Assembly (NCBI RefSeq): GCF_963921235.1
Contig: NC_086097.1
Location: forward strand, 121,212,001 to 121,276,000
Origin: Mobula hypostoma
Taxonomy: Eukaryota
Length of the DNA: 64,000 bases
Direction: 5' to 3'
The first letter of the stretch is position 1. Every line of letters begins with the position of its first letter. The position numbers were made by a program, and so were the translations under genes. The notes beneath the pieces were generated by a model. It was not told where the DNA came from. It saw nothing but the letters and a program-made list of their open reading frames with translations, and searched no databases. Positions 1-60,921 of the stretch are shown here, in pieces.

Positions 1-736
1 AGGTGCAACGAGACCTGGGTGTCATTATACACCAGTCATTGAAAGTGGGCATGTAGGTACAGCAGGCGGTGAAAAAGGCGAATGGTATGCTGGCATTTAT
101 AGCGAGAGGATTCGAGTACAGGAGCAGCGAGGTACTACTGCAGTTGTACAAGGCCTTGGTGAGACCACACCTGGAGTATTGTGTGCAGTTTTGGTCCCCT
201 AATCTGAGGAAAGACATCTTTGCCATAGAGGGAGTACAAAGAAGGTTCACCAGATTGATTCCTGGGATGGCAGGACTTTCATATGAAGAAAGACTGGATG
301 AACTGGGCTTGTACTCGTTGGAATTTAGAAGATTGAGGGGGGATCTGATTGAAACGTATAAGATCCTAAAGGGATTGGACAGGCTAGATGCAGGAAGATT
401 GTTCCCGATGTTGGGGACGTCCAGAACGAGGGGTCACAGTTTGAGGATAGAGGGGAAGCCTTTTAGGACCGAGATTAGGAAAAACTTCTTCACACAGAGA
501 GTGGTGAATCTGTGGAATTCTCTGCCACAGCAAACAGTTGAGGCCAGTTCATTGGCTATGTTTAAGAGGGAGTTAGATATGGCCCTTGTGGCTACAGGGG
601 TCAGGGGGTACGGAGGGAAGGCTGGGGCGGTGTTCTGAGTTGGATGATCAGCCATGATCATAATAAATGGCGGTGCAGGCTCGAAGGGCCGAATGGCCTA
701 CTCCTGCACCTATTTTCTATGTTTCTATGTTTCTAT
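1..736 (+). mobile_element. CR1 (HER1-like) LINE, 3' end of ORF2 plus 3' UTR; young subfamily with (TTTCTATG)n tail
   Basis: ORF 69-638 has CR1 C-terminal motifs (LVRPHLEYCVQFWSP, LEFRRLRGDLIE, FFTQRVVNLWNSLP). 3' UTR GAAGGGCCGAATGGCCTACTCCTGC is followed by octamer repeats at ~713-736. Nearly identical to the copies at 14608 and 40974. Confidence 0.95.
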
Positions 737-4950: not shown

Positions 4951-5953
4951 ACACTAGCGTTCTGAAAGAGGTAGCAGTAGAGATTGTGGAGGCATTAGTA
5001 ATGATCTTTCAAGAATCATTGGACCCTGGCATGGTTCCAGAGAATTGGTAAATTGCAGGAAGGGGTAGGGGGGAGGCAGCAGAAAGACCAGTTAGACCAG
5101 TTAGCCTGACCTCAGTAGTTGGGAAGTTGTTGGAGTCAATTGTTAAGGATGAGGTTATGGAGTACTTGATGACACAGGATAAGAGATGACAAAGTCAACA
5201 TGGTTTCCTTAGAGGAAAATATTGCCTAACGAACCTGTTGGAATACTTTGAGAACATTAAAATTAGGATAGATAAAGCGGATGCGGAGATGTTGTATATT
5301 TGGATTTTCAGAAGGCCTTTGACAAGATGCCACACATAATGCTGCTTACAAAGTTGAGAGCCGATGGTATTACAGGAAAGTTACTAACATGGTTAGAGCA
5401 TTGTCTGATTGGGAGGAGGCAGCGAGTTGGAATAAAGGGATCCTTTTCTGGTTATTGTCAGTGACTATTAGTGTTCCACAGGGGTTGGTGTTGGAACCGC
5501 TTCTTTTTATGCTGTATATCCATGTTTTAGATGATGGAATAGATAGCTTTGTTGCCAAGTCTGCAGATGATACAAAGATTGGTGGAGGGGCTGGTAGTGT
5601 TGAGGAAACTTAAAGGCTGCAGAAGGACTTAGACAGATTGGGAAAATGGGCAAGAAAGTGGAAAATGAAATATAATGTTGGAAAATGCATGGTCATGCAC
5701 TTTGGTAGAAGAAATAAGTGTGCAGACAATTTTCTAAATGGGGAGAAAATCCAAAAATCTGAGATGCACAGGGACTTTGGAGTCCTTGGACAGAACATTC
5801 TGAAGGTTAACTTGCAGATTGAGTCAGTGGTGAGGAAGGCAAATACAATGTTAGCATTCATTTCAAGAGGTCTAGAATATAAGAGCAGGGATGTGATGCT
5901 GAGGCTTTGTAAGCACTAGTGAGGCCTCACCTCGAGTATTGTGAACAGTCTTG

Positions 5954-6379
5954 TGTCACAACCACGGATTCGGCAGCACAGTAGATACGGCAATTGTGCT
6001 TGTGAATATGCACGTGTCAGCTAATTATTATTTATTTGTAATAGTATTTAACTCTGTAGTTGTTGTCGTAGTTCTCGTCGAGACTTGGACAGAGCACAGC
6101 AACACTTAGCTACCTGTTTGCATTCGGTGTTCCCTGAGAAATTAGACTTCGAGTCAACTGACTCTGAAGACTAGCGGTATTTGTTTAATGTTTAGATGTT
6201 CTTTTCAGCCACACTGTAAGCTTGGTTTTCCATTTGAGGGTTTTAGTTAACGGCCCTGTTTGGCCTAGCATTTATTGTTTAATTTTTCCTTTAACACTGT
6301 TCGCATTAAAGTCTGTGTACTATCAACCTGCTTCAGTGTCTCTCACTCCGCCTTTGGGCCACATCCAAACTGGGTAACA
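5954..6379 (+). repeat. 5' LTR
   Basis: TGTCACAACC...GGGTAACA. TATA-like TATTTAA at 6045-6051 and ATTAAA at ~6305. Direct repeat of 10631-11056. Confidence 0.95.
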
Positions 6380-6400
6380 GCAAGTCTCGACCACACAAAG

Positions 6401-7600
6401 ATGGACCCAGTGGAGAGAGAGCAGCTGACCTTGGCCGTGAGATTCATTGGTCAGGTAGGAGACAAGCTACAGGCAATGGAATCTGTTCTCAGTGTAATTA
6501 TGGAGGCAATGAAGCAGATAATCTCAGGCCAACAAGCCCAGTCTCACTTGGAGGAAAAGGTATCGTTCCTAGCCGCAATTGTTCAACAGCTCAACATAAG
6601 ACAATCGGACTCAGGTGTCTGCGATTTCCACACTCACGGCCGCTGACCACGAACTTACTGTGAACAGCCAGCATCAGCTGACAGCCATTAACATTCTCGC
6701 CAACTCAATTCAGCAGCTTCAGGCCACCTCAGTCCCACTCCCAGCATCTCGCAGATAACTCCTTTCCTGCTGCCCCAACAATTTCTGCTACTAATGCTCC
6801 CGCTCCCACGCCTGGACCAGAGCCGACTCCCACCACCATACAGGAACCGAGGATTCCACCACCAGGCAGATATTCTGCTGATCCTGATGGTTGCAGGAAT
6901 TTTATCACCCAATGCAAGCTGACATTCCAAGCCCAGCCTAGTCGTTTTGGTGGTGATGCGCGAAAATTGGCGTACATAGTCAATCTTCTTGATGGACCTC
7001 CACTCAGCCTGTTCAATGCTTTACAGGAGCAAAGATACCCCGCAGCCCAGTCATTCTGACATCAAGGAGGGTGCTTGATCTTCCAGTACGGGGTCAGGAG
7101 GCTGCCCACCAACTCTTGGACCTGCACCAAGGTAGAAGAATGGTTGAGAGTCTATGCAGTTAAATTCCATACCCTTGCAGCAGAGATGGGATGGAATGAG
7201 AAATCTCTCATCACTGCCTTCCAGCGTGGACTGAATGCAGGGATCTGGCATGAGTTTGCTGTACAGGATGAACAAGGTAGTCTGGATGACCTGATTAATC
7301 TGGCTGTTCGAGTTGACGACCGGGTAACTGAATGGCACAGGGAAAGAATATTCAAACTTCTTATGTGCTGCTTGATCACTGTCTTTCCTCACCCTCTCCC
7401 CCTCCCTCACCACCCAGCACCCAGCCCACGGAGGAGCCTATGCAAGTGGGACACATGCGCCTGTCTCAGGAGGAATGAGAGCGGCGCCGGAGAACAGGTT
7501 CCTGCCTCTATTGTGGTGATCCAGGACACTTCCGGGCGGCATGTTCCAAGCGTCCGGTAAAAGAGAATACCTGTCAGCAGGGAGGGAAATCCTGACGGGT
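6401..7600 (+). pseudogene. sushi-like gag, frameshifted
   Basis: MDPVERE start at 6401. PGRYSADPDGCRNFITQCKLTFQAQPSRF (RTL1/PEG10-type capsid segment) at ~6862-6945, YAVKFHTLAAEMGWNE, and CLYCGDPGHFRAAC zinc knuckle at ~7503-7544. Confidence 0.88.
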
Positions 7601-10600
7601 CGATTCTCTCTTCAGTCAGCTTCCCCTCATTCTGTAATGCTCGCAGCTTCCTTGTCGTGGAATTATCAGACCCATAAACTTAAAGCATTTATTGACTCTG
7701 ATGCAGCTGGGAATCTTACGGACATCTCACTCGCTCAAACATGGGGAGTTCCAACTCAGGAATTAAGAGAAAAGATCAATTTTAAGGCGCTGGACGGTCA
7801 GCCTCTGGGAACCAGCCAGATCCACCTTTCCACCCAACCCCTCCAACTGGTGCTGGAAGGCAACCATGAAGAAATACCTTTCTATCTGGTTAATTCACCT
7901 GAACTGCCACTCGTACTTGGTCTCCCCGGTTATCTCGACATAACCCATGGATCGATTGGTCTCTGAAGGTACTCCAAGAGTGGGGACTGGCATGCCTGTC
8001 TACCTGTCTGGGTCCAGCTCGAGCTCCGTTCCACGAATTCCCTCCTGTGTCAGCTAAGGATGTGCACCTGTCTGGGATTCCGGCTGAATATGCAAATTTC
8101 TTTGAGTTTCTCAGTAAAAGAAAGGCCACCACCCTGTCCCCACACCGGCCATACCACTGTGCTATAGACCTCTTACCTGGCACTAGTCCTCCCCGGGGCC
8201 GGCTCTTTTCCCACACTCGTCCTGAAATGGTGGCCATGGAGGAATATATTAAGGAGGCATTGAGCATGGGGTTTATCCGTCCGTCAACCTCGACGACAGG
8301 TGTGGGCTTCTTTCTTGTGAGCAAGCTCTGTTCCTGCATCTGTTATCGGCCCTTAAGCAACATCAATCTGAAGAACCTCTACCCTCTTCCCTTGCTGGCG
8401 TCTGCATTTGAACATCTCCAGGGAGCAACCATATTTTCCAAAATTGATCTGTGCAATGCTTACAATCTGATTCACATAAGAGAAGGGGATGAGTGGAAAA
8501 TGGCTTTCAACACCTTTAATGGCCACTATGAATACCTGCTGATGCCTTTTGGTCTGGCCAACACCCCCACTGTAATCCTCGCCTTGGTTAACGATGTGCG
8601 CAGGGACATGTTGAAGCAGTTTATGTTTGTTTCTTTAGATAACATCCATGGCTATTCCCACGCTCATCGGGAGCACATCCAGCATGTCCGGAGAGTACTC
8701 AGCCACCTTCTTGAAAAGGACCTGTATGCCAAGCTGAAAAATGTGAATTCCATAAAGACTAAGTGTTGTTTTTGGGTTATATACTTACCCCATCCAGTGT
8801 TCAAATGGACTCTGGTAAAGTTCAGGCAGTTGCAGAATGGCCCAGACTGTGAACAGTCAAACAGGTACATGGGGTCTGCGAACTTTTATCACCGTTTCAT
8901 CCGGAATTCTGGCTCTATCACGGCTCCAAATAATGCACTCACCAAGAAGACCTCGGCAGGAGTCTCTTGGACAGACGATGTCGACCAAGCGTTTTCTGAG
9001 CTAAAGTGACACTTCACCACTGCCCCGCTGCTGCAACACCCAGACCCATCTCAGCCATTCATTGTCGAGGTGGATGCATCCGATGTAGGCATTGGAGCTG
9101 TCCTCTCTCAGCGCTCATCTGCAGATAGCCAGCTACACCCTTGTGCCTCTCTTTCCCATCGCTTGACTCCAGCCGAGAGGAATTACGATGTTGGGAACCA
9201 GAAGCTTCTGGCTGGAAGGAATGGCGACACTGACTGGAGGAGGCAGAGCATCCATTCTTGATCTGGACAGATCACAAGAACATCTCCTATATTCAGGATG
9301 CTAAGAGACTTGACTCTCATCAAGCCCGGTGGGCTCTCTTCTTCACACGGTTCAATTTCGTCCTCACTTATCATCCCGGCAGCAAGAATACAAAGGCTGA
9401 CGCTCTCTCCCGGCAGTCTGACGGATCTGAGGACAATGCTGATCCAGAGCCCATTCTCCCTTGCTCGTGTATCACTGCTCCGGTGATCTGGGGAACAGAG
9501 GCAGTGGTGAGGGCCGCCCAACGATCACATCCAGGCCCGGATGGGGTACTTCCCAGCTGGCTGTTTGCCCCTGCTGCGGTACGTTCCAAAGTGTTGGAAT
9601 GGGGTCACTCCTCCCATCTGGCTAGACATCCAGGAATTCAACGGGCACAGGAGTTTATAAGGAGACAATTTTGGTGGCCATCTATGCCCCAGGATGTCCA
9701 GAACTTTGTATCTGCCTGTCCCATCTGCACTCGGAACAAGACATCACAACAGCATCCTGCCAGTCTGTTATGTCCACTGCTTGCGCCCCACCACCCCTGG
9801 TCCCACCTCTCAGTAGATTTCATCACTGGTCTGCCCCTGTCTGATAGAAACACCACCATTTTGGTCTTTGTGGATTGATTTTCCAAGGCTGCCCACTTCA
9901 TTGCCCTCCCCAGGCTCCCATCGATTCGTGAGACTGCCACACTCATTGTTCAACATGTGTTCAGGCTCCACGGTTTTCCTCAAGACATAGTGTCTGATCA
10001 TGGACCACAGTTCACTTCCTGCTTTTGGAAGGATTTCTGCTCTCTTGTAGGAGCCAGGGCAGCCTATCGTCTGGATTCCACCCCCCAATCTAATGGCCAG
10101 ACTGAGAGAGTGAACCAGGAGTTAGAGACAACCCTGTACTGTCTTGCCTCTTCCAACCCCACGTCCTGGAGCTCCCAATTAGTTTGGGCAGAGATTGCCC
10201 ACAATTATCTCCAGTCGTCCTCCACCAGTATGTCTCCCTTTGAGTGCCAGAAGGGATTCCAGCCCCCTGCTCTTCCTTGATCAGAAAATTGACGTAAAAG
10301 TTCCTGCTGTTGAACACCTGATCCAGCACTACAAGCGGACCTGGAGATGAGCCAGGGCTTATCTGCTGCATGCCCAAAAACAACATTCCCGGCAGGCTGA
10401 TAAACTCTGTCGAAAGGTAAGGCCATTCAAGCCAGGAGAGGAGGTCTGGTTGGCATCAAGGGACCTTCCCCTGAAAGTCGAGAACCGGAAATTGGTACCA
10501 CGCTACGTGGGACCGTTTGTAGTGGAAAAGGTTGTCAACAAGGTGTCCTATAGATTGTGTCTACCAGCATCACTGAAGATTCCACGTTTCCCAGCTCAAG

Positions 10601-10630
10601 CTGCTTCCAGTGGACACAGGTCTGTGGCCC
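7541..10630 (+). pseudogene. pol (protease-RT-RNase H-integrase) with multiple stops and frameshifts
   Basis: ORFs 7541-7966, 8047-9009 (FSKIDL, YEYLLMPFGLAN; catalytic YLDD decayed to SLDN), 9070-9261, 9258-9878, 9957-10280 and 10450-~10600. Confidence 0.92.
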
Positions 10631-11056
10631 TGTCACAACCATGGATTGGGCAGCGCAGTATATATGGCAATTGCGCTTTGAATATGCGCATCTCAGCTAA
10701 TTATTATTTCATTGTGATAGTATTTAACCCCATACTTGTCGTCGTAGTGCTTGTCGAGACTTGGACAGAGCACAGCAACACTTCGCTGCCTGTTTGCATT
10801 TGGTCTTCCCTGAGAAATTGGACTGTCAAGTCAACTGACTCTGAATACGAGCAGTATTCGTTTAATGTTTAGATGTTCTTTTCATCCGCAGTGTAGGCTT
10901 CATTTTCCATTTGAGAGTTTTAGTTAACAGCCCTGTTCAGCCTAGAGTTTATTGTTTTATTTTCCCTTTAATACTGTTCACATTAAAATCTGTGAACTAT
11001 CGACCTACTTCAATGTCTCTCACTCCGCACTTGGGCCATATTAGAACATGGTAACA
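10631..11056 (+). repeat. 3' LTR
   Basis: TGTCACAACC...TGGTAACA, followed by the TSD TCTTG. Confidence 0.95.
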
Positions 11057-11146
11057 TCTTGGGCTCCTTATCTAAGAAAAGATGTGCTGGTGTTGGAGAG
11101 GGTTCAGAGGAAGTTCACAAGGATGATTCTGAGTATGAAGGGGTTA

Positions 11147-14607: not shown

Positions 14608-16728
14608 TAGAAACATAGAAACATAGAAAATAGGTGCAGGAGTAGGCCATTCGGCCCTTTGAGCCTGCACCACCATTTATTATGATCATGGCTGATCATC
14701 CAACTCAGAACCCTGTACCTGCTTTCTCTCCATACCCCTGATCGCTTTAGTCACAAGGGCCATATCTAACTCCCTCTTAAATATAGCCAATGAACCGGCC
14801 TCAACTGTTTCCTGTGGCAGAGAATTCCACAGATTCACCACTCTCTGTGTGAAGAAGTTTTTCCTAATCTCCTTCCCCTTTATCCTCAAATGGTGACCCC
14901 TCGTTCTGGACTTCCCCAACATCGGGAACAATCTTCCTGCATCTAGCCTGTCCAATCCCTTTAGGATTTTATACGTTTCAATCAGATCCCCCCTCAATCT
15001 TCTAAATTCCAATGAGTACAAGCCCAGTTCATCCAGTCTTTCTTCATATGAAAGTCCTGCCATCCCAGGAATCAATCTGGTGAACCTTCTTTGTACTCCC
15101 TCTATGGTAAGGATGTCTTTCCTCAGATTAGGGGACCAAAACTACACACAATACTCCAGGGGTGGTCTCACCAAGGCCTTGTACAACTGCATTAGTACCT
15201 CCCTGCTCCTGTACTCGAATCCTCTCGCTATAAATGCCAGCATACCATTTGCCTTTTTCACCGCCTGCTGTACCTGCATGCCCACTTTCAATGACTGGTG
15301 TATAATGACACCCAGGTCTCGTTGCACCTCCCCTTTTCCTAATCGGCCACCATTCAGATAATAATCTGTTTTCCTATTTTTGCCACCAAAGTGGATAACT
15401 TCACATTTATCCACATTAAATTGCATCTGCCATGAATTTGCCCACTCTCCCAACCTATCCAAGTCACTCTGCATCCTCTTAGCATCCTCCTCACAGCTAA
15501 CACTGCCGCCCAGCTTCGTGTCATCCACAAACTTGGAGATGCTGCATTTAATTCCCTCATCCAAGTCATTAATATATATTGTAAACAACTGGGGTCCCAG
15601 CACTGAGCCTTGCGGTACCCCACTAGTCACTGCCTGCCATTCTGAAAAGGTCCCATTTATTCCCACTCTTTGCTTCCTGTCTGCCAACCAATTCTCTATC
15701 CACATCAATACCTTACCCCCAATACCGTGTGCTTTAAGTTTGCACACTAATCTCCTGTGTGGGACCTTGTCAAAAGCCTTTTGAAGATCCAAATATACCA
15801 CATCCACTGGTTCTCCCCTATCCACTCTACTAGTTACATCCTCAAAAAATTCTATGAGATTCGTCAGACATAATTTTCCTTTCACAAATCCATGCTGACT
15901 TTGTCCGATCATTTCACCGCTTTCCAAATTTGCTGTTATCACATCTTTGATGACTGACTCCGGCAGTTTCCCCACCACCGACGTTAGGCTAACCGGTCTA
16001 TAATTCCCCGGTTTCTCTCTCCCTCCTTTTTTAAAAAGTGTGGTTACGTTAGCCACCCTCCAATCCTCAGGAACTAGTCCAGAATCTAACGAGTTTTGAA
16101 AAATTATCACTAATGCATCCACTATTTCTTGGGCCACTTCCTTAAGCACTCTGGGATGCAGACCATCTGGCCCTGGGGATTTATCTGCCTTTAATCCCTT
16201 CAATTTACCTAACACCACTTCCCTACTAACACGTATTTCGCTCAGTTCCTCCATCTCACTGGACCCTCTGTCCCCTAATATTTCTGGAAGATTATTTATG
16301 TCCTCCTTAGTGAAGACAGAACCAAAGTAATTATTCAATTGGTCTGCCATGTCCTTGCTCCCCATAATCAATTCACCTGTTTCTGTCTGTAGGGGACCTA
16401 CATTTGTCTTTACCAGTCTTTTCCTTTTTACATATCTATAAAAGCTTTTACAGTCAGTTTTTATGTTCCCTGTCACTTTTCTCTCATAATCTTTTTTCCC
16501 CTTCCTAATTAAGCTCTTTGCCCTCCTCTGCTGAACTCTGAATTTCTCCCAGTCCTCAGGTGAGCCACTTTTTCTGGCTAATTTGTATGCTTCTTCTTTG
16601 GAATTGATACTATCCCTAATTTCTCTAGTCAGCCATGGGTGCACTACCTTCCTTGATTTATTCTTTTGCCAAACTGGGATGAACAATTGTTGTACTTCAT
16701 CCATGCGATCTTTAAATGCTTGCTATTG
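14608..16728 (-). mobile_element. young 5'-truncated CR1
   Basis: (TAGAAACA)n tail on + strand at 14608-14628; ORFs 15142-16704 and 14686-15075. Confidence 0.95.
15142..16704 (-). pseudogene. CR1 ORF2 RT domain, 520 codons open, premature stop at 15142
   Basis: NYRPVSLTS, QHGF, YLDLQKAFDKV, SGVPQGSVLGP, FVDDTK; no endonuclease part. Confidence 0.92.
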
Positions 16729-18915: not shown

Positions 18916-21900
18916 TTTTTTCTTCTTATCATTGGAGTTAAGAGAGGCGGGACTGCGCGGGTGTATGATGTCGGGCAGTGAAGTGTGGAAGATTTAAAAG
19001 GAACACAGCCGTATACAGCTGGCAGCATCGTTTTGCGGGCAGCGGTGTGAGCCGGGAGTAGAGTGAAGGCTTAACGGCTTGGCGCTTAAGTGGAAATGGG
19101 CAAGGCAAAGTAGGTTTGGTTTTCAATTTTTCCTGTTATTTGAGGAAAGGGGGAAGTATAAGTGTGAGGGCAGCTTGCTGTTCTCGGTGTCGGATGTGGG
19201 AGGTCCTAGAGTCTCTAGCCTCTCGGACGTCCACATCTGCTCCAGGTGCACCGAGCTGCAGCTCCTAAGGGACCGTGTTAGGGACCAGACCTTCGTCTGG
19301 TCAGGGAGAGTGAGGAGTTGATGGAGAGGGGTTACAGGCAGGTGGTCACACCAGGGCCACGGGAGGCAGACAAGTGGGTCATGGTTAGGAGTGGGAAGGG
19401 GAAAAATCAGGTACTAGAGAGTACCCCAGTGGCTGTGCCCCTTGACAATAAGTACTTTTGTTTGAGTACTGTTGTGGGGGACAGCTTACCTGGGGGAAGC
19501 AACAGTGCCCGTGCCTCCCGCACAGAGTCCGGCCCTGTAGCTCAGAAGGGTGGGGAAGGGAAGAGGAGGGCAGTAGTAATTGCGGATCGATATTTAGGGG
19601 GTCAGATAGGCCATTCTGTGGACGCAGTCAGGAGATCCGGATGGTAGTTTGCCTCCCTGGTGCCAGGGTCCGGGATGTTTCTGATCGCGTCCAAGATATC
19701 CCAAAGTGGGAGGGTGAGGAGCCAGAGGTCGTGGTACATACAGGTACCAATGACATAGGCAGGAAAAGGGAAGAGGTCCTGAAAGAAGAACATAGGGAGT
19801 TAGGAAGGGAGTTGAGAAGAAGGGCCGCAAACGTAGTAATCTCGGGATTACTGCCTGTGCCAATCGACAGTGAGAGTAGGAATGGAATGAGGTGGAGGAG
19901 AAATGCGTGACTGAGGGATTGGAGCAGGGGGCAGGGATTCAAGTTTCTGGATCATTGGGACCTCTTTTGGCGCAGGTGTGACCTGTACAAAAAGGACAGG
20001 TTGCACATGAATCCCAGGGGGACCAATATCCTGGCGGGGAGATTTGCAAAGGCTACTGGGGAGACTTTAAACTAGAATGGTTGGGGGGTGGTTATCAAAT
20101 TGAAGAGACTAGGAGAGAGGAGGTTAGTTCACAAATAGAGAAAGCTAGTAGACAGTGTGTGAGGGAGGATAGGCAGGGGAATTTGAACAGGAGCGCTCAG
20201 ACTGAAGATGTAGGGGAGAAGGAAGAAAAAGATAATAAAGTTGTTTGCGCCATTAGGGATAAACAGACAGTAAGAAATGGAGAGTTTCTTAAATGCATCT
20301 ATTTTAATTCTAGGAGCATTGTAAGAAAGGTGGATGAGCTTAGAGCATGGATTGATACCTGAAAATATGATGTTGTAGCTTACTGAAACATGGTTGCAAG
20401 AGGGGTGTGATTCACAGCTAAATATTCCTGGATTTCATTGCTTCAGGTGTGATAGAATCAGAGGGGCAAGAGGGGGAGGTGTTGCATTGCTTGTCAGAGA
20501 AAATATTACAGCGGTGCTTTGGCGGGATAGATTAGAGAACTCGTCTAGGGAGGCTATTTGGGTGGAATTGAGGAATAGGAAAGGTGTAGTAAAGCTAGTA
20601 GGGGTGTATTATAGACCACCTAATGGGGAGCAAAAATTGGAGGAGGAAATTCGTAAGGAGATAGCAGATATTTGTAGTAAGCACAAGGTTGTGATTGTGG
20701 GAGATTTTAATTTTCCACACATAGACTGGGAAGCCCATTCTATGAAAGGGCTGGATGGTTTGGAGTTTGTAAAATGTGTGCAAGATAGTTTTTTGCAGCA
20801 ATACATAGAGGTACCAACTAGAGAAGGGGCAGTGTTGGATCTCCTGTTAGGGAATGAAATAGGTCAAGTGACGGAGGTATGTGTTGGGGAGCACTTCGGG
20901 TCCAGTGATCACAATGCTATTAGTTGCAATATATTATGGAGAAGGATAGGACTGGACCAGAGTTGAGATTTTTGATTGGAGATAGGCTAACTTTGAGGAG
21001 ATGCGAAAGGATTTAGAAGGAGTGGATTGGGACAATTTGTTTTATGGGAAGGATGTAATAGAGAAATGGAGGTCATTTAAAGGTGAAATTTTGAGGGTAC
21101 GGAATCTTTATGTTCCTGTTAGGTTGAGAGGAAAGGTTAAAAGTTTGAGAGAGCCATGGTTTTCAAGGGATATTGGAAACTTGGTTCAGAAAAAGAGAGA
21201 GATCTACAATAAATATAGGCAGCTTGGAGTAAATGAGGTGCTCGAGGAATATAAAGAATGTAAAATGAACCTTAAGAAAAAACTAGACAAGCTAAAAGAA
21301 GATACGAGGTTGTTTTGGCAAGTAAGGTGAAAATAAATCCAAAGGGTTTCTACAGTTATATTAATAGGAAAAGGATAGTGAGGGATAAAATTGGTCCCTT
21401 AGAGAATCAGAGTGGACAGCTATGTGCAGAGCCAAAAGAGATGGCGGAGATTTTGAACAACTTCTTTTCTTCAGTATTCAGTAAGGAGAAGGATATTGAA
21501 TTATGTAAGGTAAGGGAAACAAGTAGGGTAGTTATGGAAACTATGATGTTTAAAGAAGACAGGATATTCCCTAGGACCTTGGGGGAAGTTAGTGTGTAAA
21601 TAACAAGGGCTCTGACAGAAATATTTCAAATGTCATTAGAAATGGAGATGGTGCCAGAGGATTGGTGTATTGCTCATGTTGTTCCATTGTTTAAAAAGGG
21701 TTCTAAGAGTAAACCTAGCAATTATCAGCCTGTGAGTTTGATGTCAGTGGTGGGTAAATTGATGGAAAGTATTCTTAGCGATGGTATATATAATTATCTG
21801 GATAGACAGGGTCTGATTAGGAAAAGTAAATACAATATGGATTTGTGCGTGGAAGGTCATGTTTGATGAATCTTATTGAATTTTTTGAAGAGGTTACTAG

Positions 21901-23182: not shown

Positions 23183-25800
23183 TAAGAAATCGCAGGGGTA
23201 AAAGGACCCTAATGGCAGTTATTTATAGGCCTCTAAACAGCTGCAGTGATGTGGACTACAAATTACAACAGGAAATAGAAAAGGCTTGTTAGAAGGGCAG
23301 TGTTATGATAATTGTGGGGGATTTTAACATGCGAGTGGATTCGGAAAATCAGGTTGGCACTGGATCTCAAGAGAGAGTACTTGCAGAATGTCTGCTAGAT
23401 GGCTTTTTAGAACAGCTTGTTGTTGAGCCCACTAGGGGATCGGCTGTACTGGATTGGGTATTGTGTAATGAACCGGAGGTGATTAGAGAGATTGAGGTAA
23501 AGGAACCCTTAGGAGGCAGTGATCATAACATGATTGAGTTCACTGTGAATTTTGAAAAAGAGAAGCCGAAATCTGATGTGTCGGTATTTCAGTGGAGTAA
23601 AGGAAATTACAGTGGCATGAGAGATGAACTGGCCAAAGTTGACTGGAAAGGGACACTGGCGGGAAGGACGGCAGAGTAACAGTGGCTGGAGTCTATGCGA
23701 GAAGTGAGGATGGTGCAAGACAGGTATATTCCAAAGAAGAAGAAATTTTCGAATGGAAAAAGGATGCAACCGTGGTTGACAAGAGAAGTCAAAGCCAAAA
23801 TTAAAGCAAAGGAGAGGGCATACAAGGAAGCAAAAATTCGTGAGAAAACAGAGGATTGGGAAGTTTTTAAAAGCTTACAAAAGGAACTAAGAAGGTCATT
23901 AAGAGGGAAAAGATTAATTATGAAAGGAAGCTAGCAAATAATATCAAAGAGGATACTAAAAGCTTTTTCAAGTATATAAAGAGTAAAAGACAGGTGAGAG
24001 TAGATATAGGACCAATAGAAAATGATGCTGGAGAAATTGTAATGGGAGAGAAGGAGATGGCAGATGAACTGAACGAGTATTTTGCATCAGTCTTCACTGA
24101 GGAAGACATCAGCAGTATACCGGACACTCAAGGGTGGCAGGGAAGAGAAGTGTGCACAGTCACAATTACGACAGAGAAAGTACTCAGGAAGCTGAATAGT
24201 CTAAAAGGTAGATAAATCTACTGGACCAGATGGAATGCACCCTCATGTTCTGAAGGGAGTAGCTGTGGAGATTGCAGAGGCATTAGCGATGATCTTTCAA
24301 AAGTTGATAGATTCTGGCATGGTTCCTGAGGACTGGAAGATTGCAAATGTCACTCCGCTATTTAAGAAGGGGGCAAGGAAGCAAAAAGGAAATTATAGAC
24401 CTGTTAGCTTGATATCGGTGGTAGGGAAGTTGTTGGAGTTGATTGTCAAGGATGAGGTTACAGAGTACCTGGAGGCATATAACAAGATAGGCAGAAATCA
24501 GCATGGATTCCTTAATGGAAAATCCTGCTTGACAAACCTATTACAATTTTTTGAGGAAATTACAAGTAGGCTAGACAAGGGAGATGCAGTGGATGTTGTA
24601 TATTTGGATTTTCAGAAGGCCTTTGACAAGGTGCCACACATGAGGCTGCTTAACAAGATAAGAGCCCATGGAATTACGGGAAAGTTACATACATGGATAG
24701 AGCGTTGGCTGTTTGGCAGGAAACAGAGAGTGGGAATAAAGGGATCCTATTCTGGTTGGCTGCCGGTTACCAGTGGTGTTCCACAGGGGTCCGTGTTGGG
24801 GCTGCTTCTTTTTACATTGTACATCAGCGATTTGGATTATGGAATAGATGGCTTTGTGGCTAAGTTTATGCTGACGATACAAAGATAGGTGGAGGGGCCG
24901 GTAGTGCTGAGGAAACAGAGAGTTTGCAGAGAGACTTGGATAGATTGGAAGAATGGGCAAAGAAGTGGCAAATGAAATACAATGTTAGAAAGTGTATGGT
25001 TCTGCACTTTGTCAGAAGAAATAAACGGGCAGACTATTACTTAAATGGGGAAAGAATTCAAAGTTCTGAGATGCAACGGGACTTGGGAGTCCTCGTACAG
25101 GATACCCTTAAGGTTAACCTCCAGGTTGAGTCGGTGGTGAAGAAGGCGAATGCAATATTGGCATTCATTTCTAGAGGAATAGAGTATAGGAGCAGGGATG
25201 TGATGTTGAGGCTTATAAGGCGCTGGTGAGACCTCACTTGGAGTATTGTGGGCAGTTTTGGTCTTATTTAAGAAAGGATGTGCTGACATTGGAGAGGGTA
25301 CAGAGAAGATTCACTAGAATGATTCCGGGAATGAGAGGGTTAACATATGAGGAACAGTTGTCCTCTCTTGGACTGTATTCCTTGGAGTTTAGAAGAATGA
25401 GTGGAGATCTCATAGAAACATTTCGAACGTTGAAAGGCATGGACAGGGTGGATGTGGTAAAGTTGTTTCCCATGATTGGGGAGTCTAGTATGAGAGGGCA
25501 TGACTTAAGGATTGAAGGGTGCCCATTCAGAACAAAGATGCGAAGAAATTATTTTAGCCAGAGGGTGGTGAATCTATGGAATTTGTTGCCACAGGCAGCA
25601 GTGGAGGCCAAGTCATTGGGTGTATTTAAAGCAAAGATTGATAGGTATCTGAGTAGCCAGGGCATTAAAGGTTATGGTGAGAAGGCGGGGGAGTGGGACT
25701 AAATGGGAGAATGGTTCAGCTCATGATTAAATGGCGGAGCAGACTCGATGGGCCGCATGGCCGACTTCTGCTCCTTTGTCTTATGGTCTATGGTCTTATA
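23183..25800 (+). mobile_element. 5'-truncated CR1, (TATGGTCT)n-tail subfamily
   Basis: ORFs 23305-23679, 24235-24888, 24924-25229 and 25226-25702. Splits the gypsy RT motif EWKTA..|TPTAHYKYLVM. Confidence 0.93.
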
Positions 25801-31959: not shown

Positions 31960-33582
31960 ACTGAAAGAAGAGATAGTAAGAGATTTGAAAGTGGGAGGGG
32001 GAGGGGGAGATCCAAAATGATAGGAGAAGACAGGAGGGGGAGGGATGGAGCTAAGAGCTGGACAGGTGATTGGCAAAAGGGATATGAGAGGATCATGGGA
32101 CAGGAGGCCTAGGGAGAAAGAAAAGGGGAAGGGGGAATCCTAGAGGATGGGCAAGGGGTATAGTGAGAGGGACAGAGGGAGAAAAAAAAAATAAATACAT
32201 AAATAATTAACAGATGGGGTACCAAGGAGAGGTGGGGCATTAACAGAAGTCAGAGAAGTCAATGTTCATGCCATCAGGTTGGAGGCTACCCAGGCGGAAT
32301 ATAAGGTGTTGTTCCTCCAGCCTGAGTGTGGCTTCATCGTTACAGTAGAGGAGGCCATAGATAGACATATCAGAATCGGAATGGGACGTGGAATTAAAAT
32401 GTGTGGCCACTGTGAGATCCTGCTTTCTCTGGTGGACAGAGAATAAGTGTTCAGTGAAACGGTCTCCCAGCCTGCATGGGGTCTCGCCAATATATAGAAG
32501 GCCACATCGGGAGCACCGGACGCAGTATATAACTCCAGCCAACTCACAGGTGAAGTGTTGCCTCACCTCTAAGGACGGTCTAGGGCCGTGAATAGTGGTG
32601 AGGGAGGAAGCGTAAGGGCATGTGTAGCACTTGTTCCACTTGCAAGGATAAGTGCCGGGAAGGAGATCGGTGGGAAGGGATGGGGGGAGGGGGAATGAAT
32701 GGACAAGGGAGCGATCCCTGCAGAAAGCGGGGGGTGGGGGGGGAGGGAAAGATGTGCTTAGTTGTGGGATCCCGTTGGAAGTGGCAGAAGTTACGGAGTA
32801 TTATATGTTGGACCCGGAGGCTGGTGGGGTGGTAGGTGAGGACAAGGGGAACCCTATTCCTAGTGGAGTGGCGGGAGAATGGGGTGAGAGCAGATGTGTA
32901 TGAAATGGGAGAGATGCATTTGAGAGCAGAGTTGATGGTGGAGGAAGGGAAGCCCCTTTCTTTAAAAAAGGAGGTCACCTCCTTCGTCCTGGAACGAAAA
33001 GCTTCATCCTGAAAGCAGATGCGGCGGAGATGGAGGAATTGCGAGAAGGGGATGGCATTTTTGCAAGAGACAGGGTGAGAAGAGGAATAGTCCAGATAGC
33101 TGTGAGAGTCCGTAGGCTTATAGTAGACATCAGTAGATAAGCTGTCTCCAGAGATAGAGACAGAAAGATCAAGAAAGGGGAGGGAGGTGTCGGAAATGGA
33201 CCAGGTAAACTTGAGGGCAGGGTGAAAGTTGGAGGCAAAGTTAATGAGGTCAACGAGCTCAGCATGCATGCAGGAAGCAGCGCCAATGCAGTCATCGATG
33301 TAGCGAAGGAAAAGTGGGGGACAGATACCAGTATAGGCTTGGAACATGGATTGCTTCATATAGCCAAACAAAAAGGCAGGCATAGCTGAGACCCATACAG
33401 GTTTCCGTGGCTACACCTTTAGTTTGGAGGAAGTGGGAGGAGCCAAAGAAGAAATTATTAGGAGTAAAGACTAATTCCGCTAGATGGAGCAGAGTGGTGG
33501 TAGAAGGGAACTGGTTAGGTCTGGAATCCAAAAATAAGCGGAGAGCTTTGAGACCTTCCTGCTGGGGGATGGAAGTATATAG

Positions 33583-48699: not shown

Positions 48700-50060
48700 A
48701 TACGAAACAAAACAATAGTGCAAATAATGGTGAACTATATACAATGAGGTATACCTTTGTATGTACAGGTGAACTTGGGTTATAATAGACTAAAATTCAA
48801 GTGTTCATACGGAAGATAGCATACAGAAAGAAACTGTTCTTGTACCTATTTGTCCTGGCGTACAGTGATCTAAAGCACCTACCAGAAGGAAGGAGTTGGA
48901 ACAGGTGATGTCCAGGGTGTGATGGGTCTACAATGATGCTGCTTGCTCGCTTCCTGACTCTAGATGCATATAAGTCCTGGATCGAGGGCAGCTTCACACC
49001 AATAATCCTTTCCGCAGCCCTGACGGTTCTTTGAAGTCTATTCTTGTCTTGTTTGGTAGCTGATCCAGACCAGACAGTCATGGACGAACAGAGAACAGAC
49101 TGGATTATTCCTGAATAGAATTGAATCAGCAGCTCCTGAGGCAGGTTGTACTTCCTGAGTTGACGTAGGAAATACAACCTCTGCTGAGACTTTTTGACAA
49201 GAGCGTCCGCGTTGGGCGTCCACTTCAGGTCCTGGGAGATTGTGACACCCAGAAACCTGAAGGTCTCCACAGCAGACACAATACTGTTGAGTATAGTGCG
49301 TGGGGGGAGTATTGGGGAGCTCCTCCTGAAGTCCACTGTCATCTCCACAGTCTTGAGCGTATTTAGCTCCAGATTGTTCTGACCACACCAGAGGGCCAGC
49401 CGTTCCACCACCCGTCTGTATGCAGACTCATCACCGTCTCGGATAAGGTCAATGATAGTTGTATCGTCTGCAAACTTCAGGAGTTCAACAGCTGGATCCT
49501 GTGAGGTGCAGTCATTAGTGTAAAGGGAGAAGAGCAGTGGGGAGAGTACACATCCCTGGGGGGCACCGGTACTGATTGTCCGGGTGCTAGAAATGATTCT
49601 CCCCAGCCTCACCTGCTGCACCCTGTCAGTCAGGAAGCTTGTGATCCACTGACAGATGGCGGGGGAGACAGTGAGCTGAGTGAGTTTGGAGTGCAGGAAT
49701 TCTGGGACGATGGTGTTGAACGCTGAGCTGAAGTCAACAAACAGGACCCTCACAGAAGTTCCTGGGTTGTCGAGGTGTTGTAGTATGTAATGCAGTCCCA
49801 TGTTGACTGCATCATCCACTGACCTATTTACCCGATAAGCAAACTGCAGGGGGTCCAGCAGGGGGCCTGTGATGTCATTCAGATGAGCTAATACTAGTCT
49901 CTCAAAGGACTTCATGACCACAGATGTCAAGGCAACAGGCCTGTAGTCATTTAGTCCCTTGATAGTGGGTTTCTTAGGGACTGGAATGATAATGGAGTGC
50001 TTGAAGCAATGAGGGACTTCACACAGCTCCAGTGATCTATTGAAGATCCGTGTGTAGATC
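48700..50060 (-). mobile_element. young 5'-truncated Rex1/Babar LINE
   Basis: [70 protein letters not shown]; no stops over 48797-50060. Confidence 0.93.
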
Positions 50061-50137
50061 AGAGATGCTCTTCTGCATACCACTGTTGTAATGTGTGATT
50101 TTTTTGAGTTACTGTCAGCTTGAACCAGCCTGGCCAT
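48797..50137 (-). CDS. chimeric 446-aa ORF: ~25 aa from a Tc1 remnant + uninterrupted Rex1 RT (expression unknown)
   Basis: ATG and MARLVQAD come from the Tc1 element 50061-50483; the rest is RT. Confidence 0.4.
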
Positions 50138-50483
50138 TCTCCTCTGACCTCTCTCATTAACATGGCATTTTCATCCACAGAACTGCTACTCACTGTTTTT
50201 TTTTTGTTTTTCACAGCATCCTCTGTAAACTCCAGAGACTGTTGTATGTGAAAATCCCAGGATATCAGCAGTTTCTGAGATACTCAAACCACCCCGTCTG
50301 GCATCAACAATCATTCCCTGGTCAAAGTCACTTCGATCACATTTCTTCCCCATTTTGATGTTTGGTCTGAACAACAACTGAACCTCTTGGCCATGTCTGC
50401 ATGCTTTTACACGCTGACTTGCTGCCATATGATTGGCTAATTAGATATTTGCAGTGTGTACCTAAAAAAGTGGCCACTAAGTG
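50061..50483 (-). mobile_element. non-autonomous Tc1 element, 5' half only
   Basis: TIR AAAGTGGCCACTAAGTG|TA at the right; MGKKCDRSDFDQGMIV.ARRGGLSISETADILGFSHTTVS HTH remnant. Confidence 0.88.
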
Positions 50484-57947: not shown

Positions 57948-60921
57948 CAGTACCCATAAAAAGTATTCCTCCCACCCCACCGCCTCCCGGAAGTTATCGT
58001 ATTTTATTGTTTTACAACAATGAATCACAGTAGATTTAATTTGGCTTTTTTGACACTGATCAACAGAAAAAGACTCTTTCGTGGCAAAGTGAAAACAGAT
58101 CTCTTCAAAGTGATATAAATTAGTTAAAAATATAAACACAAAATAATTGATTCAATAAGTAATCACCCTCCCCCGCTTTAATACGACACACCAAATCATC
58201 ACTGGTGCAGCTATTTGGTTTTAGAAGTCACATAATTAGTTAAATGGAGATCTGTGTGCAGTCAAAGTATTTCAATTGATTATTGTAAAAAGACACCTGT
58301 ATCTGGAAGGTCCAACTGCTGGTGAGTCAATACCCTGGCAAAAGCTACACCATGAAAATGTCACTCCGCTATTTAAGAAGGGGGCAAGGAAGCAAAAAGG
58401 AAATTATAGACCTGTTAGCTTGACATCGGTGTTTGGGAAGCTGTTGGAATTGATTGTCAAGGATGAGGTTACAGAGTACCTGGAGGCATATGACAAGATA
58501 GGCAGAACTCAGCATGGATTCCTTAAAGGAAAATCCTGCTTGACAAACCTATTACAATTTTTTGAGGAAATTACCAGTAGGCTAGACAAGGGAGATGCAG
58601 TGGATGTTGTATATTTGGATTTTCAGAAGGCCTTTGACAAGGTGCCATACATGAGACTACTTAACAAGATAAGAGCCCATGGAATTACGGGAAAGTTACA
58701 TACGTGGATAGAGCATTGGCTGATTGGCAGGAAACAGAGAGTGGGAATAAAGGGATCCTATTCTGGTTGGCTGCCGGTTACCAGTGGTGTTCCACAGGGG
58801 TCCGTGTTGGGGCCACTTCTTTTTACATTGCACATCAATGATTTGGATTATGAAATAGATGGCTTTGTGGCAAAGTTTGCTGATGATAGGAAGATCGGTG
58901 GAGGGGCTGGTAGTGCTGAGGAAACTGAGAGTCTGCAGAGAGATTTGGTTAGTTTGGAAGAATGGGCACAGAAGTGGCAAATAAACTACAATGTTGGAAA
59001 GTGTATGGTTATGCACTTTGGCAGAAGAAATAAACGGGCAGACTATTACTTAAATGGGGAAAGAATTCAAAGTTCTGAGATGCAACGGGACTTGGGAGTC
59101 CTCAGGACACCCTTAAGGTTGAGTTGGTGGTGAAGAAGGGGAATGCAATGTTGGCATTCATTTCTAGAGGAATAGAGTATAGGAGCAGGGATGTGATGTT
59201 GGGGCACTATAAGGCACTGGTGAGACCTCACTTGGAGTACTGTGGGCAGTTTTGGTCTCCTTATTTCAGAAAGGATGTGCTGAATTTGGAGAGGGTACAG
59301 AGAAGATTCACTCGAATGATTCCGGGAATGAGAGGGTTAACATATGAGGACCGTTTGTCCGCCCTTGGACTGTATTCCTTGGAGTTTAGAAGAATGAGGG
59401 GAGACCTCATAGAAACATTTCAAATGTTGAAAGACATGGACAGAGTGGATGTGGCAAAGTTGTTTCCCATGATGGGGGAGTCTAGTATGAGAGGGCATGA
59501 CTTCAGGATTGAAGGGCGCCCTTTCAGAACAGAAATGCAAAGAAATTTTTTTAGTCAGAGGGTGGTGAATCTATGGAATTTGTTGCCACAGGCAGCAGTG
59601 GAGGCCAAGTCATAGGGTGTATTTAAGACAGAGATTGATAGGTATCTGAGTAGCCAGGGCGTCAAAGGTTATGGTGAGAAGGCGGGGAAGTGGGACTAAA
59701 TAGGATAAAATGGATCAGCTCATGATAAAATGGCGGAGCAGACTCGATGAACCGAATGGCCGACTTCTGATCCTTTGTCTTATGGTCTTACGAAGACAAA
59801 AGAACACTCCAAGCAACTCTGTGAAAAGGTTATTGAAAAGCACAAGTCAGGAGATGGGTACAATAAAATTTCCAAGTCACTGAATATCCCTTGGAGTACA
59901 GTTAAGTCAATCATCAAGAAATGGAAAGAATATGGCACAGCTGTAAATCTGCCAACATTAGGTCGTCCTCAAAACCTGAGTGGCAGTGCAAGAAGTGGAC
60001 TGGTGAGGGTGCCACCAAGAGACCTATGATAGCTCCAGAGGAATTGCAAGCTTCAGTGGCTGAGATGGGAGAGACTGTACATGCAACTGTTGACCAGGTG
60101 CTTCACCAGTCGCAGCTTTATGGGAGAGTGGAAAAGAGAAAGCCAGTTGGAAAAAACTCATATGAAATCTCAGTTAGAGTTTGCCAGAAGGCATGTGGAA
60201 TACTCTGAAGTTAGCTGGAAGAAGGTTCTATGGTCTGATGAAACCAAAATTGAGTTTTTTGGCCATCAGACTAAACACTATGTTTACGCTAAGGCATAAG
60301 CCAAACACAGCACATCAAAAAAAGACCATCCCTACCATGAAGCATGGTGGTGGCTGCATCATACTGTGGGGATGCTTCACTGCAGCAGGCCCTGGAAGGC
60401 TCATGAAGGTAGAGGGTAAAATAAATGCAGCAAAATACAGGGAAATTTTGAAGGATCCAGTCTGCAAGAGAACTGCAACTTGGGAGAAGATTTGTTTTCC
60501 AGCAAGACAATGACCCCAAGCCTAAAGCCAAAGCTACACAGTAATGGCTTAAAACAGCAAAGTTAATGTCCTGGAGTGGCCAAGCCAGAACCCAGACCCT
60601 AATCCAATTGAGAATTTGTGGTCGGACTTGGAAAAAGCTGATAGAGATGAGAGAGGCTCAAGGCTGTAATCATTGCCAAAATGCATCTACTAAACATTAA
60701 CTTTAAGTGGGTGAATACTTATGCAATCAATCATTTTGTGATTTATATTTACAATTAATTTGGATCCCTTTGTAGAGATCTGTTTTCACTTTGACATGAA
60801 AGAGTCTTATTCTGTTGATCACTGTCAAAAAAGTCAAATAAAATTCTCTGTGATTCAATTTTGCAAAACAATAAAACTTGAAAATTTACCAGGGGGAGGG
60901 GGATACTTTTTATAGGCATTG
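57948..60921 (+). mobile_element. Tc1 transposon with long (~200 bp) TIRs, interrupted by CR1 at the start codon
   Basis: 57948-58170 is the inverted repeat of 60705-60921. Transposase [68 protein letters not shown]. Confidence 0.92.
58357..59789 (+). mobile_element. 5'-truncated CR1, same subfamily as 23183-25800
   Basis: ORFs 58276-59133 and 59124-59615; imperfect TSD ATGAA/ACGAA (58352-58356, 59790-59794). Confidence 0.93.

What the first reader, a model, noticed from the sequence alone, without database searches (positions are those of the whole stretch)
6045..6391. tRNA-independent self-priming signature in the sushi-type LTR element
Seen: directly after the 5' LTR there is no TGG-type tRNA PBS. 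Instead CAAGTCTCGAC (6381-6391) is the exact reverse complement of GTCGAGACTTG inside the LTR (6077-6087; also unchanged in the 3' LTR at 10753-10763). That 11-mer lies ~30 nt downstream of TATTTAA (6045-6051), where the transcription start would be expected. Established: fission-yeast Tf1 primes minus-strand synthesis with the first 11 nt of its own mRNA, and the same has been proposed for vertebrate Tf1/sushi elements. Inference: this family self-primes.
Basis: partly seen in the sequence, partly recalled or inferred. Interest (0 to 1): 0.75.

Follow-up and report, generated by a model that had tools for sequence, protein, structure and literature searches.

The report
Self-priming sushi-type retrotransposon family
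A dead jumping gene in a vertebrate genome has, where a host tRNA would normally dock, 11 bases that pair exactly with a stretch of its own end-repeat, and four sister families keep this pairing, three of them with different letters, so the group likely started copying itself with its own RNA end, a trick already proven in yeast Tf1 and proposed for fish sushi elements.

Summary
Observation confirmed. In a decayed Ty3/gypsy element (LTRs 5954-6379 and 10631-11056, 5-bp target duplication), bases 6381-6391 are the exact complement of LTR bases 6077-6087; 3 of 20,000 shuffles match that. Five related LTR families in this genome carry four different 11-mers, each matched by its own primer site: 8 of 11 positions change on both sides. 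Pairing stops at the 11-mer's first base, which lies 30-32 nt after an AT-rich box, and 0 of 91 copies have TGG there. A U5-leader stem is also kept. Three independent fold-back copies are joined seamlessly at this pairing. Sister copies carry a chromodomain; the window copy has lost it and its polypurine tract. Best reading: Tf1-type self-priming, a new member of a known kind (Tf1/sushi). Not shown: the transcription start, the cut and the priming itself. The third Tf1 duplex was not found, the tRNA check covered only 26 sequences, and one family pairs only 10 bases. The scan noted a similar pairing before on other DNA of this genome and in other genomes.

The parts
5949..5953 (+). left target-site duplication TCTTG
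   Evidence: same five bases at 11057-11061; 5 of 5
5954..6379 (+). 5' LTR, 426 bp, TG...CA
   Evidence: 86% identical to the 3' LTR
6045..6051 (+). TATA-like box, first base 32 nt before the 11-mer
   Evidence: most AT-rich 7-mer starts at -32 in 14 of 19 family-A copies and mostly at -30/-31 in the other four families; promoter role inferred
6077..6087 (+). predicted self-primer: first 11 nt of the RNA
   Evidence: exact complement of 6381-6391; covaries with the primer site across families; being the RNA 5' end is inferred
6305..6310 (+). ATTAAA, likely poly(A) signal (places 6339-6379 in U5)
   Evidence: role inferred from the motif (recalled)
6339..6362 (+). U5 arm of the predicted U5-leader stem
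6380..6380 (+). one-base G spacer between LTR end and primer site
   Evidence: G in nearly all copies of all five families
6381..6391 (+). primer-binding site, not tRNA-like
   Evidence: 160 genome matches of LTR end + site + leader at up to 1 mismatch, control 0
6401..6420 (+). gag start codon and leader arm of the U5-leader stem
   Evidence: ATG at 6401 in frame 6269-6646; pairing
6401..10601 (+). broken gag-pol (gag, protease-like stretch, RT, RNase H, integrase, SH3), in at least eight separate frames
   Evidence: PF03732 (below cut-off), PF00078, PF17919, PF17921, PF00665 (below cut-off), PF24626
10601..10626 (+). two deletions relative to sister copies: about 208 bp holding the chromodomain (near 10601/10602) and about 30 bp holding the polypurine tract (near 10625/10626)
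10631..11056 (+). 3' LTR, with the unchanged 11-mer at 10753-10763
11057..11061 (+). right target-site duplication; the interrupted LINE fragment resumes after it
   Evidence: contigs of other LINE copies run from 5953 straight into GGCTCC... (table 7)

Best explanation
This is a decayed copy of a chromodomain-type Ty3/gypsy LTR retrotransposon family whose primer site is the exact complement of an 11-mer in its own LTR, and the family likely primed reverse transcription with the 5' end of its own RNA, as Tf1 does. Shown: the pairing, its sharp ends, its two-sided changes across families, the AT-rich box 30-32 nt upstream, the absence of TGG, and fold-back copies joined at the pairing. Inferred steps: RNA polymerase II starts at 6077; bases 1-11 loop back onto 6381-6391, which a U5-leader stem (6339-6362 with 6401-6420) would hold open; the RNase H of the element's RT would cut after base 11 (known for Tf1); the freed 3' end would prime minus-strand DNA through the G spacer into U5; the plus strand would later copy the primer and so end in the primer-site sequence. 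The window copy itself is dead (stops, frameshifts, lost chromodomain and polypurine tract).
For: Exact match, 3 of 20,000 shuffles. Family A: 25 of 30 loci carry the site, 8 of these 25 pair 11 of 11 and the rest 7-10 (window copy included). Five families, primer taken by alignment and not by best match: mean Watson-Crick pairs with sites of the same family 8.7-9.9 of 11, between families with different 11-mers 3.3-5.8. Natural examples: window GTCGAGACTTG/CAAGTCTCGAC, L055 GCCAGTTCGTT/AACGAACTGGC, L102 GCCAGATCGTT/AATGATCTGGC, L203 GCTCAATCGTA/TACGATTGAGC. 8 of 11 positions show two or more pair types. Pairing at position -1 is 2 of 41 and at +12 is 0 of 41 in A, B1, B2; 4 and 0 of 20 in C. 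AT-rich box at -30 to -32, pyrimidine at -1 in 87 of 91 and purine at +1 in 89 of 91 copies. No TGG in 91 of 91. U5-leader core pairs in 37-41 of 42 copies at five positions, 6-11 kcal/mol better than shuffled leaders. Fold-backs: 5 of 7 pattern matches (3 independent loci) read U5-G-site-inverted U3 from LTR base 134 to base 1. Chromodomain over cut-off in 5 of 6 sister frames. Tf1 mechanism and its proposal for vertebrates: passages of PMC7175516, PMC4600332, PMC6317226, bioRxiv 10.1101/2022.12.06.519325.
Against: No transcription start, cut site or primer RNA was observed. The minimum-energy fold of 6077-6420 does not form the duplex and is no better than shuffles (z 0.33); competing helices use primer bases in family A. 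The third duplex of the Tf1 'pretzel', just upstream of the site, was not found: at most 5-6 weak pairs in A and B1, none in B2. Family D pairs only 10 bases, with C opposite A at position 11 in 25 of 25 copies. No covariation within family A. The two-sided changes rest on only four distinct 11-mers, compared by register because LTRs of different families do not align. The U5-leader duplex is family-specific for C and D, partly for A, and not for B1/B2. Fold-backs are few, lack their left ends, and could also come from a plus strand paused in the site.
Confidence: 0.86

Rival explanations
1. The duplex is real and selected, but the primer is not the 11-nt Tf1 type: the cut falls after base 10 (two-base spacer) or is set by structure, or the pairing serves packaging, translation control or strand transfer while priming uses another RNA end.
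For: Family D pairs 10 bases, then C.A, then C-G. The G spacer is near-invariant. Third Tf1 duplex not found. Seven further fold-backs join at other microhomologies in R/U5.
Against: Position 11 shows three different Watson-Crick pairs in families A, B and C, which argues that it pairs. No other primer source is evident at the LTR end.
Confidence: 0.08
2. A host tRNA fragment or other small RNA primes at this site, and the LTR match is incidental.
For: Half-tRNA priming exists in copia lineages (PMC6317226 passage). The tRNA check covered only 26 sequences of 6 anticodon types, and one held 9 of the 11 bases.
Against: No TGG in 91 of 91 copies; longest contiguous complement to any tested tRNA 6 nt; four different sites each follow their own LTR 11-mer, which a host primer would not explain.
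Confidence: 0.03
3. The match is chance or a functionless inverted duplication left by one template switch.
For: Within family A the two sides decay independently.
Against: 3 of 20,000 shuffles; same geometry with different letters in families that form separate clades (tree; B1 support 0.97, B2 0.96).
Confidence: 0.02

Closest known systems
Tf1/Tf2 of Schizosaccharomyces pombe (self-priming shown by experiment)
   Same: 11-base pairing between the predicted RNA 5' end and the primer site; no tRNA site; Ty3/gypsy domain order with chromodomain in sister copies; a duplex between leader and LTR. Tf1 facts from passages of PMC7175516 and bioRxiv 10.1101/2022.12.06.519325.
   Different: One G separates LTR and site here (in Tf1 the site seems to abut the LTR, my inference from a passage of PMC11042837); the duplex upstream of the site was not found; one family pairs 10 bases; nothing here is tested by experiment.
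Vertebrate Tf1/sushi (V-clade chromovirus) elements such as sushi-ichi, for which self-priming was proposed by Butler et al. 2001
   Same: Vertebrate host; chromodomain; nearest RT relatives are fish and amphibian elements, most at 55-62% identity and many with PF00385; LTR ends TGTCAC...TAACA resemble the Sushi motifs TGTYANR/CNTNACA of PMC3601003 Table 3 (passage).
   Different: Different primer letters per family. Butler et al. 2001 is not held, so I could not compare its structures or host list; no tree with sushi-ichi was built.
Tj1, Tosmo1-3, Tcry1 (fission yeasts) and plant Tcn1 clade: self-priming inferred from sequence
   Same: Same kind of evidence: site complementary to an LTR stretch (passages).
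   Different: Here covariation is counted on 91 copies of five families in one genome, and fold-back copies mark the pairing.

Membership tests
Ty3/gypsy LTR retrotransposon | LTRs with TG...CA and target-site duplication | tested here: met
Ty3/gypsy LTR retrotransposon | domain order gag, protease, RT, RNase H, integrase | tested here: met
   (no Pfam hit for the protease-like frame 7520-7963; the other domains hit in this order)
Chromovirus | chromodomain at the integrase C-terminus | tested here: met
   PF00385 over cut-off in three family-A sister copies, one B1 and one D copy, below cut-off in the C copy; deleted in the window copy
Tf1/sushi group | RT/integrase phylogeny with sushi-ichi and Tf1 | tested here: inconclusive
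   nearest relatives are fish/amphibian chromodomain elements, some auto-named 'Tf2 polyprotein'; no reference tree
Tf1/sushi group | no tRNA-type primer site | tested here: met
   no TGG in 91 of 91 copies; internal fragments tested on 26 tRNAs only
Tf1/sushi group | primer site complementary to an LTR stretch at the predicted RNA 5' end | tested here: met
Tf1/sushi group | duplex between leader (downstream of the site) and LTR | tested here: met
   thermodynamic and pair-count support, family specificity only partial
Tf1/sushi group | duplex between the sequence upstream of the site and LTR (third 'pretzel' duplex) | tested here: inconclusive
   only 5-6 weak pairs in A and B1, none in B2; decayed copies, and the published vertebrate structures could not be read
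Tf1/sushi group | transcription start at the first base of the self-primer | not testable with these tools
   only assembled contigs available; TATA-like spacing is indirect
Tf1/sushi group | RNase H cut after base 11 and extension from that end | not testable with these tools
   needs biochemistry

The most novel reading that the evidence does not exclude
Vertebrate sushi elements use a variant of Tf1 priming: a fixed G spacer, a two-duplex fold without the upstream stem, and a cut that need not follow an 11-bp duplex (family D pairs 10 bases). Fold-back insertions joined exactly at the pairing are genomic fossils of the plus strand ending in a copy of the self-primer, and could be mined to map primer ends and start sites of extinct families without any RNA data.
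Probability: 0.25. Interest if true: 0.55.

Novelty: new member of a known kind. Interest (0 to 1): 0.33.

Why it matters
Self-priming is proven for yeast Tf1 and, according to the passages read, only proposed for vertebrate elements. Matched changes across five families in one vertebrate genome, and fold-back copies joined at the pairing, add comparative support and give natural variants (10 against 11 pairs) for a cheap in-vitro test. A self-primed element would also lie outside control by tRNA 3' fragments (inference; that control is described in the abstract of PMC7472051). The mechanism itself is not new, and the window copy is dead.

Tried and rejected
Transcription start: no RNA holder listed as on record; four guessed-RNA runs are contigs and show no start; no evidence either way. 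Global folding of 6077-6420 did not give the duplex. Rfam scan of the window: 0 matches. Host tRNA set: the Rfam search scored 63 candidates and yielded mostly Lys and Cys genes, so the fragment test is partial. Within-family covariation: L043 and L070 look compensatory but are CpG-type changes; L061, L067, L115 and L119 have a variant in both LTRs that the site does not follow, so copying of the primer into the site was not supported. Rows dropped: of 101 sequences, 53 had a direct repeat; 6 were not element LTRs; LTR ends of L092 and L116 were corrected by motif; L086, L089, L110, L117 (partial LTRs) were left out of the family counts, and singletons L074 and L099 were followed up as families C and D, whose 25 loci each were picked by likeness to a query that included the site. 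Two of 7 fold-back pattern hits (L243, L244) are ordinary elements. Lin and Levin 1997 and Butler et al. 2001 are not held. Five literature searches listed no paper on this covariation or on cartilaginous-fish elements; the library lacks most subscription journals, so this is weak. No supplements were read; those of PMC6317226 list predicted self-primers for plants and bear only on the background.

Full report
Observation. The element has 426-bp LTRs at 5954-6379 and 10631-11056, 86% identical, between TCTTG duplications, inside a LINE fragment. After the LTR's CA comes one G, then CAAGTCTCGAC, the exact complement of 6077-6087. Only 3 of 20,000 shuffled LTRs held such a match at any of six offsets, and 0 of 4,220 internal 11-mers match the real LTR.

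What the element is. The internal frames give gag (weak), RT, RNase H, integrase and the Tf2-type SH3 domain in Ty3/gypsy order, broken by stops and frameshifts. The window copy lacks about 208 bp and about 30 bp before the 3' LTR; in sister copies this region holds a chromodomain (over cut-off in 5 of 6 frames scanned) and a polypurine tract. The nearest RT relatives are fish and amphibian elements, many with a chromodomain. It is a chromovirus, most likely of the vertebrate sushi clade; no tree with sushi-ichi was made. The host genome has 3.48 Gb; earlier AI notes call it a ray, which I did not test. LTR pairs of family A are 73-91% identical, so the copies seen are old.

Family A. Of 30 loci from an LTR search, 25 carry the site (window included); 8 pair 11 of 11 and the others 7-10. 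A pattern for LTR end, site and leader finds 160 places, control 0. Within the family the two sides decay independently (9.32 pairs with the own site, 9.29 with others).

Other families. I fetched 80 of the 150 integrase-SH3 hits (20 chosen for long frames, 60 in list order) and 20 family-A loci. Of these 100 and the window, 53 had a direct repeat, 47 were element LTRs and 41 fell into families A (19), B1 (16) and B2 (6). Two singletons led to families C and D, 25 loci each. There are four different 11-mers. Same-family pairing averages 8.7-9.9 of 11; between A, B and C it is 3.3-5.8. Eight of 11 positions show two or more Watson-Crick pair types. B1 and B2 differ by one two-sided change at position 6. 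Pairing ends sharply: position -1 pairs in 2 of 41 and +12 in 0 of 41 copies of A, B1 and B2. In all families an AT-rich 7-mer usually starts 30-32 nt upstream, with a pyrimidine at -1 and a purine at +1, which fits a polymerase II start at the 11-mer (spacing rule recalled). The families form separate clades on natural integrase DNA. The caveats: four lineages are few, and positions are compared by register. Family D is the exception: 10 pairs, then C opposite A in 25 of 25 copies.

Supporting fold. Tf1 needs three duplexes (passage of bioRxiv 10.1101/2022.12.06.519325). A U5-leader stem over the gag start codon is found: five core positions pair in 37-41 of 42 copies (5 of 47 skipped), the distal arms differ between families, and own leaders beat shuffled ones by 6-11 kcal/mol, though B1 and B2 arms pair about as well with other families' leaders. 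The duplex upstream of the site was not found, and the global fold of the window RNA does not show the central duplex, although it is worth -19.3 kcal/mol on its own.

tRNA rival. No TGG follows the LTR in 91 of 91 copies, which excludes a CCA end. Internal fragments were tested on 26 distinct tRNA sequences only: longest contiguous complement 6 nt, best scattered match 9 of 11. The stronger argument is that each site follows its own LTR.

Fold-back copies. Inverted LTR parts seen proved to be insertions with U3 at both ends, some with target duplications, so fold-back cDNA of this family was made and integrated. An earlier AI note (e1-9913754) suggested reading such copies as evidence. If the plus strand ends in a copy of the self-primer, as about half of Tf1 cDNA does (passage of PMC11042837), that end can pair with the LTR 11-mer and copy U3 backwards. 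A pattern for this junction gave 7 hits, control 0; 5 have the predicted structure, from LTR base 134 to base 1, and represent 3 independent loci. Their left ends are truncated, so no target duplication could be checked, and a strand paused inside the site would give the same product. This supports the reading without proving it.

Mechanism and rivals. Most likely (0.86) the RNA starts at 6077, its first 11 bases pair with the site, RNase H cuts after base 11 and that end primes minus-strand synthesis, as shown for Tf1 (passage of PMC7175516). Start, cut and priming are inferred; RNA data were contigs only. A variant cut or another role for the duplex gets 0.08, a host RNA primer 0.03, chance 0.02.

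Comparison with what is known. Self-priming is called a common feature of the Tf1/sushi group in fungi and vertebrates (passages). I saw passages of PMC4600332, PMC6317226, PMC3601003, PMC11042837, PMC5006619, PMC7175516, PMC2864245 and the bioRxiv preprint, the abstract start and one reference line of PMC7472051, and nothing of Butler et al. 2001 or Lin and Levin 1997 beyond citations. The finding is a new member of a known kind. What it adds is counted covariation in one vertebrate genome, a 10-pair family and fold-back fossils; five searches listed no paper on these, which is weak evidence given the library. Interest 0.33.

Noticed in passing
L231-L237 (C9, C22 twice, C63, C58, C91 twice): Seven family-A insertions are fold-backs with a U3 end on both sides: LTR, site, 3-310 nt of leader, then an inverted LTR part from base 168-395 back to base 1 or 2, joined at 2-11 nt microhomologies. 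Target duplications are 5 of 5 in two, 4 of 5 in two, poor in two and unread in one. Three share about the same junction at different sites.
   Followed up: partly
L238-L242: Fold-backs joined exactly at the primer pairing, inverted U3 ending at LTR base 1; left ends truncated; L239-L241 are copies of one locus.
   Followed up: yes
L099, L206-L230 (family D): Same primer site as family B1 but another LTR; the duplex has 10 pairs, C opposite A at position 11 in 25 of 25 copies, and a C-G pair at 12.
   Followed up: partly
window 10601-10626; L116 and L078 before their 3' LTR: The G-rich stretch with the polypurine tract is lost in the window copy and in L116, and shortened in L078.
   Followed up: partly
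L032: Its internal region is 93-95% identical to the window copy over the first 1.6 kb and 83-85% beyond, suggesting a mosaic or gene conversion.
   Followed up: no
window 57-638, 5323-5953, 15142-16722, 20379-20966, 24205-25702, 58240-59615: Many LINE fragments that look CR1-like (label recalled, not scanned); the element sits inside one of them.
   Followed up: no
window 32240-33410 (-) and 48797-50170 (-): An RT plus GIY-YIG-like pair of frames resembling a Penelope element, and a 457-aa open RT frame of another LINE type (labels recalled).
   Followed up: no
G000:C90 about 4.0-4.3 Mb: Dense cluster of tRNA genes; Lys(TTT) and Cys(GCA) dominate the loci read.
   Followed up: no
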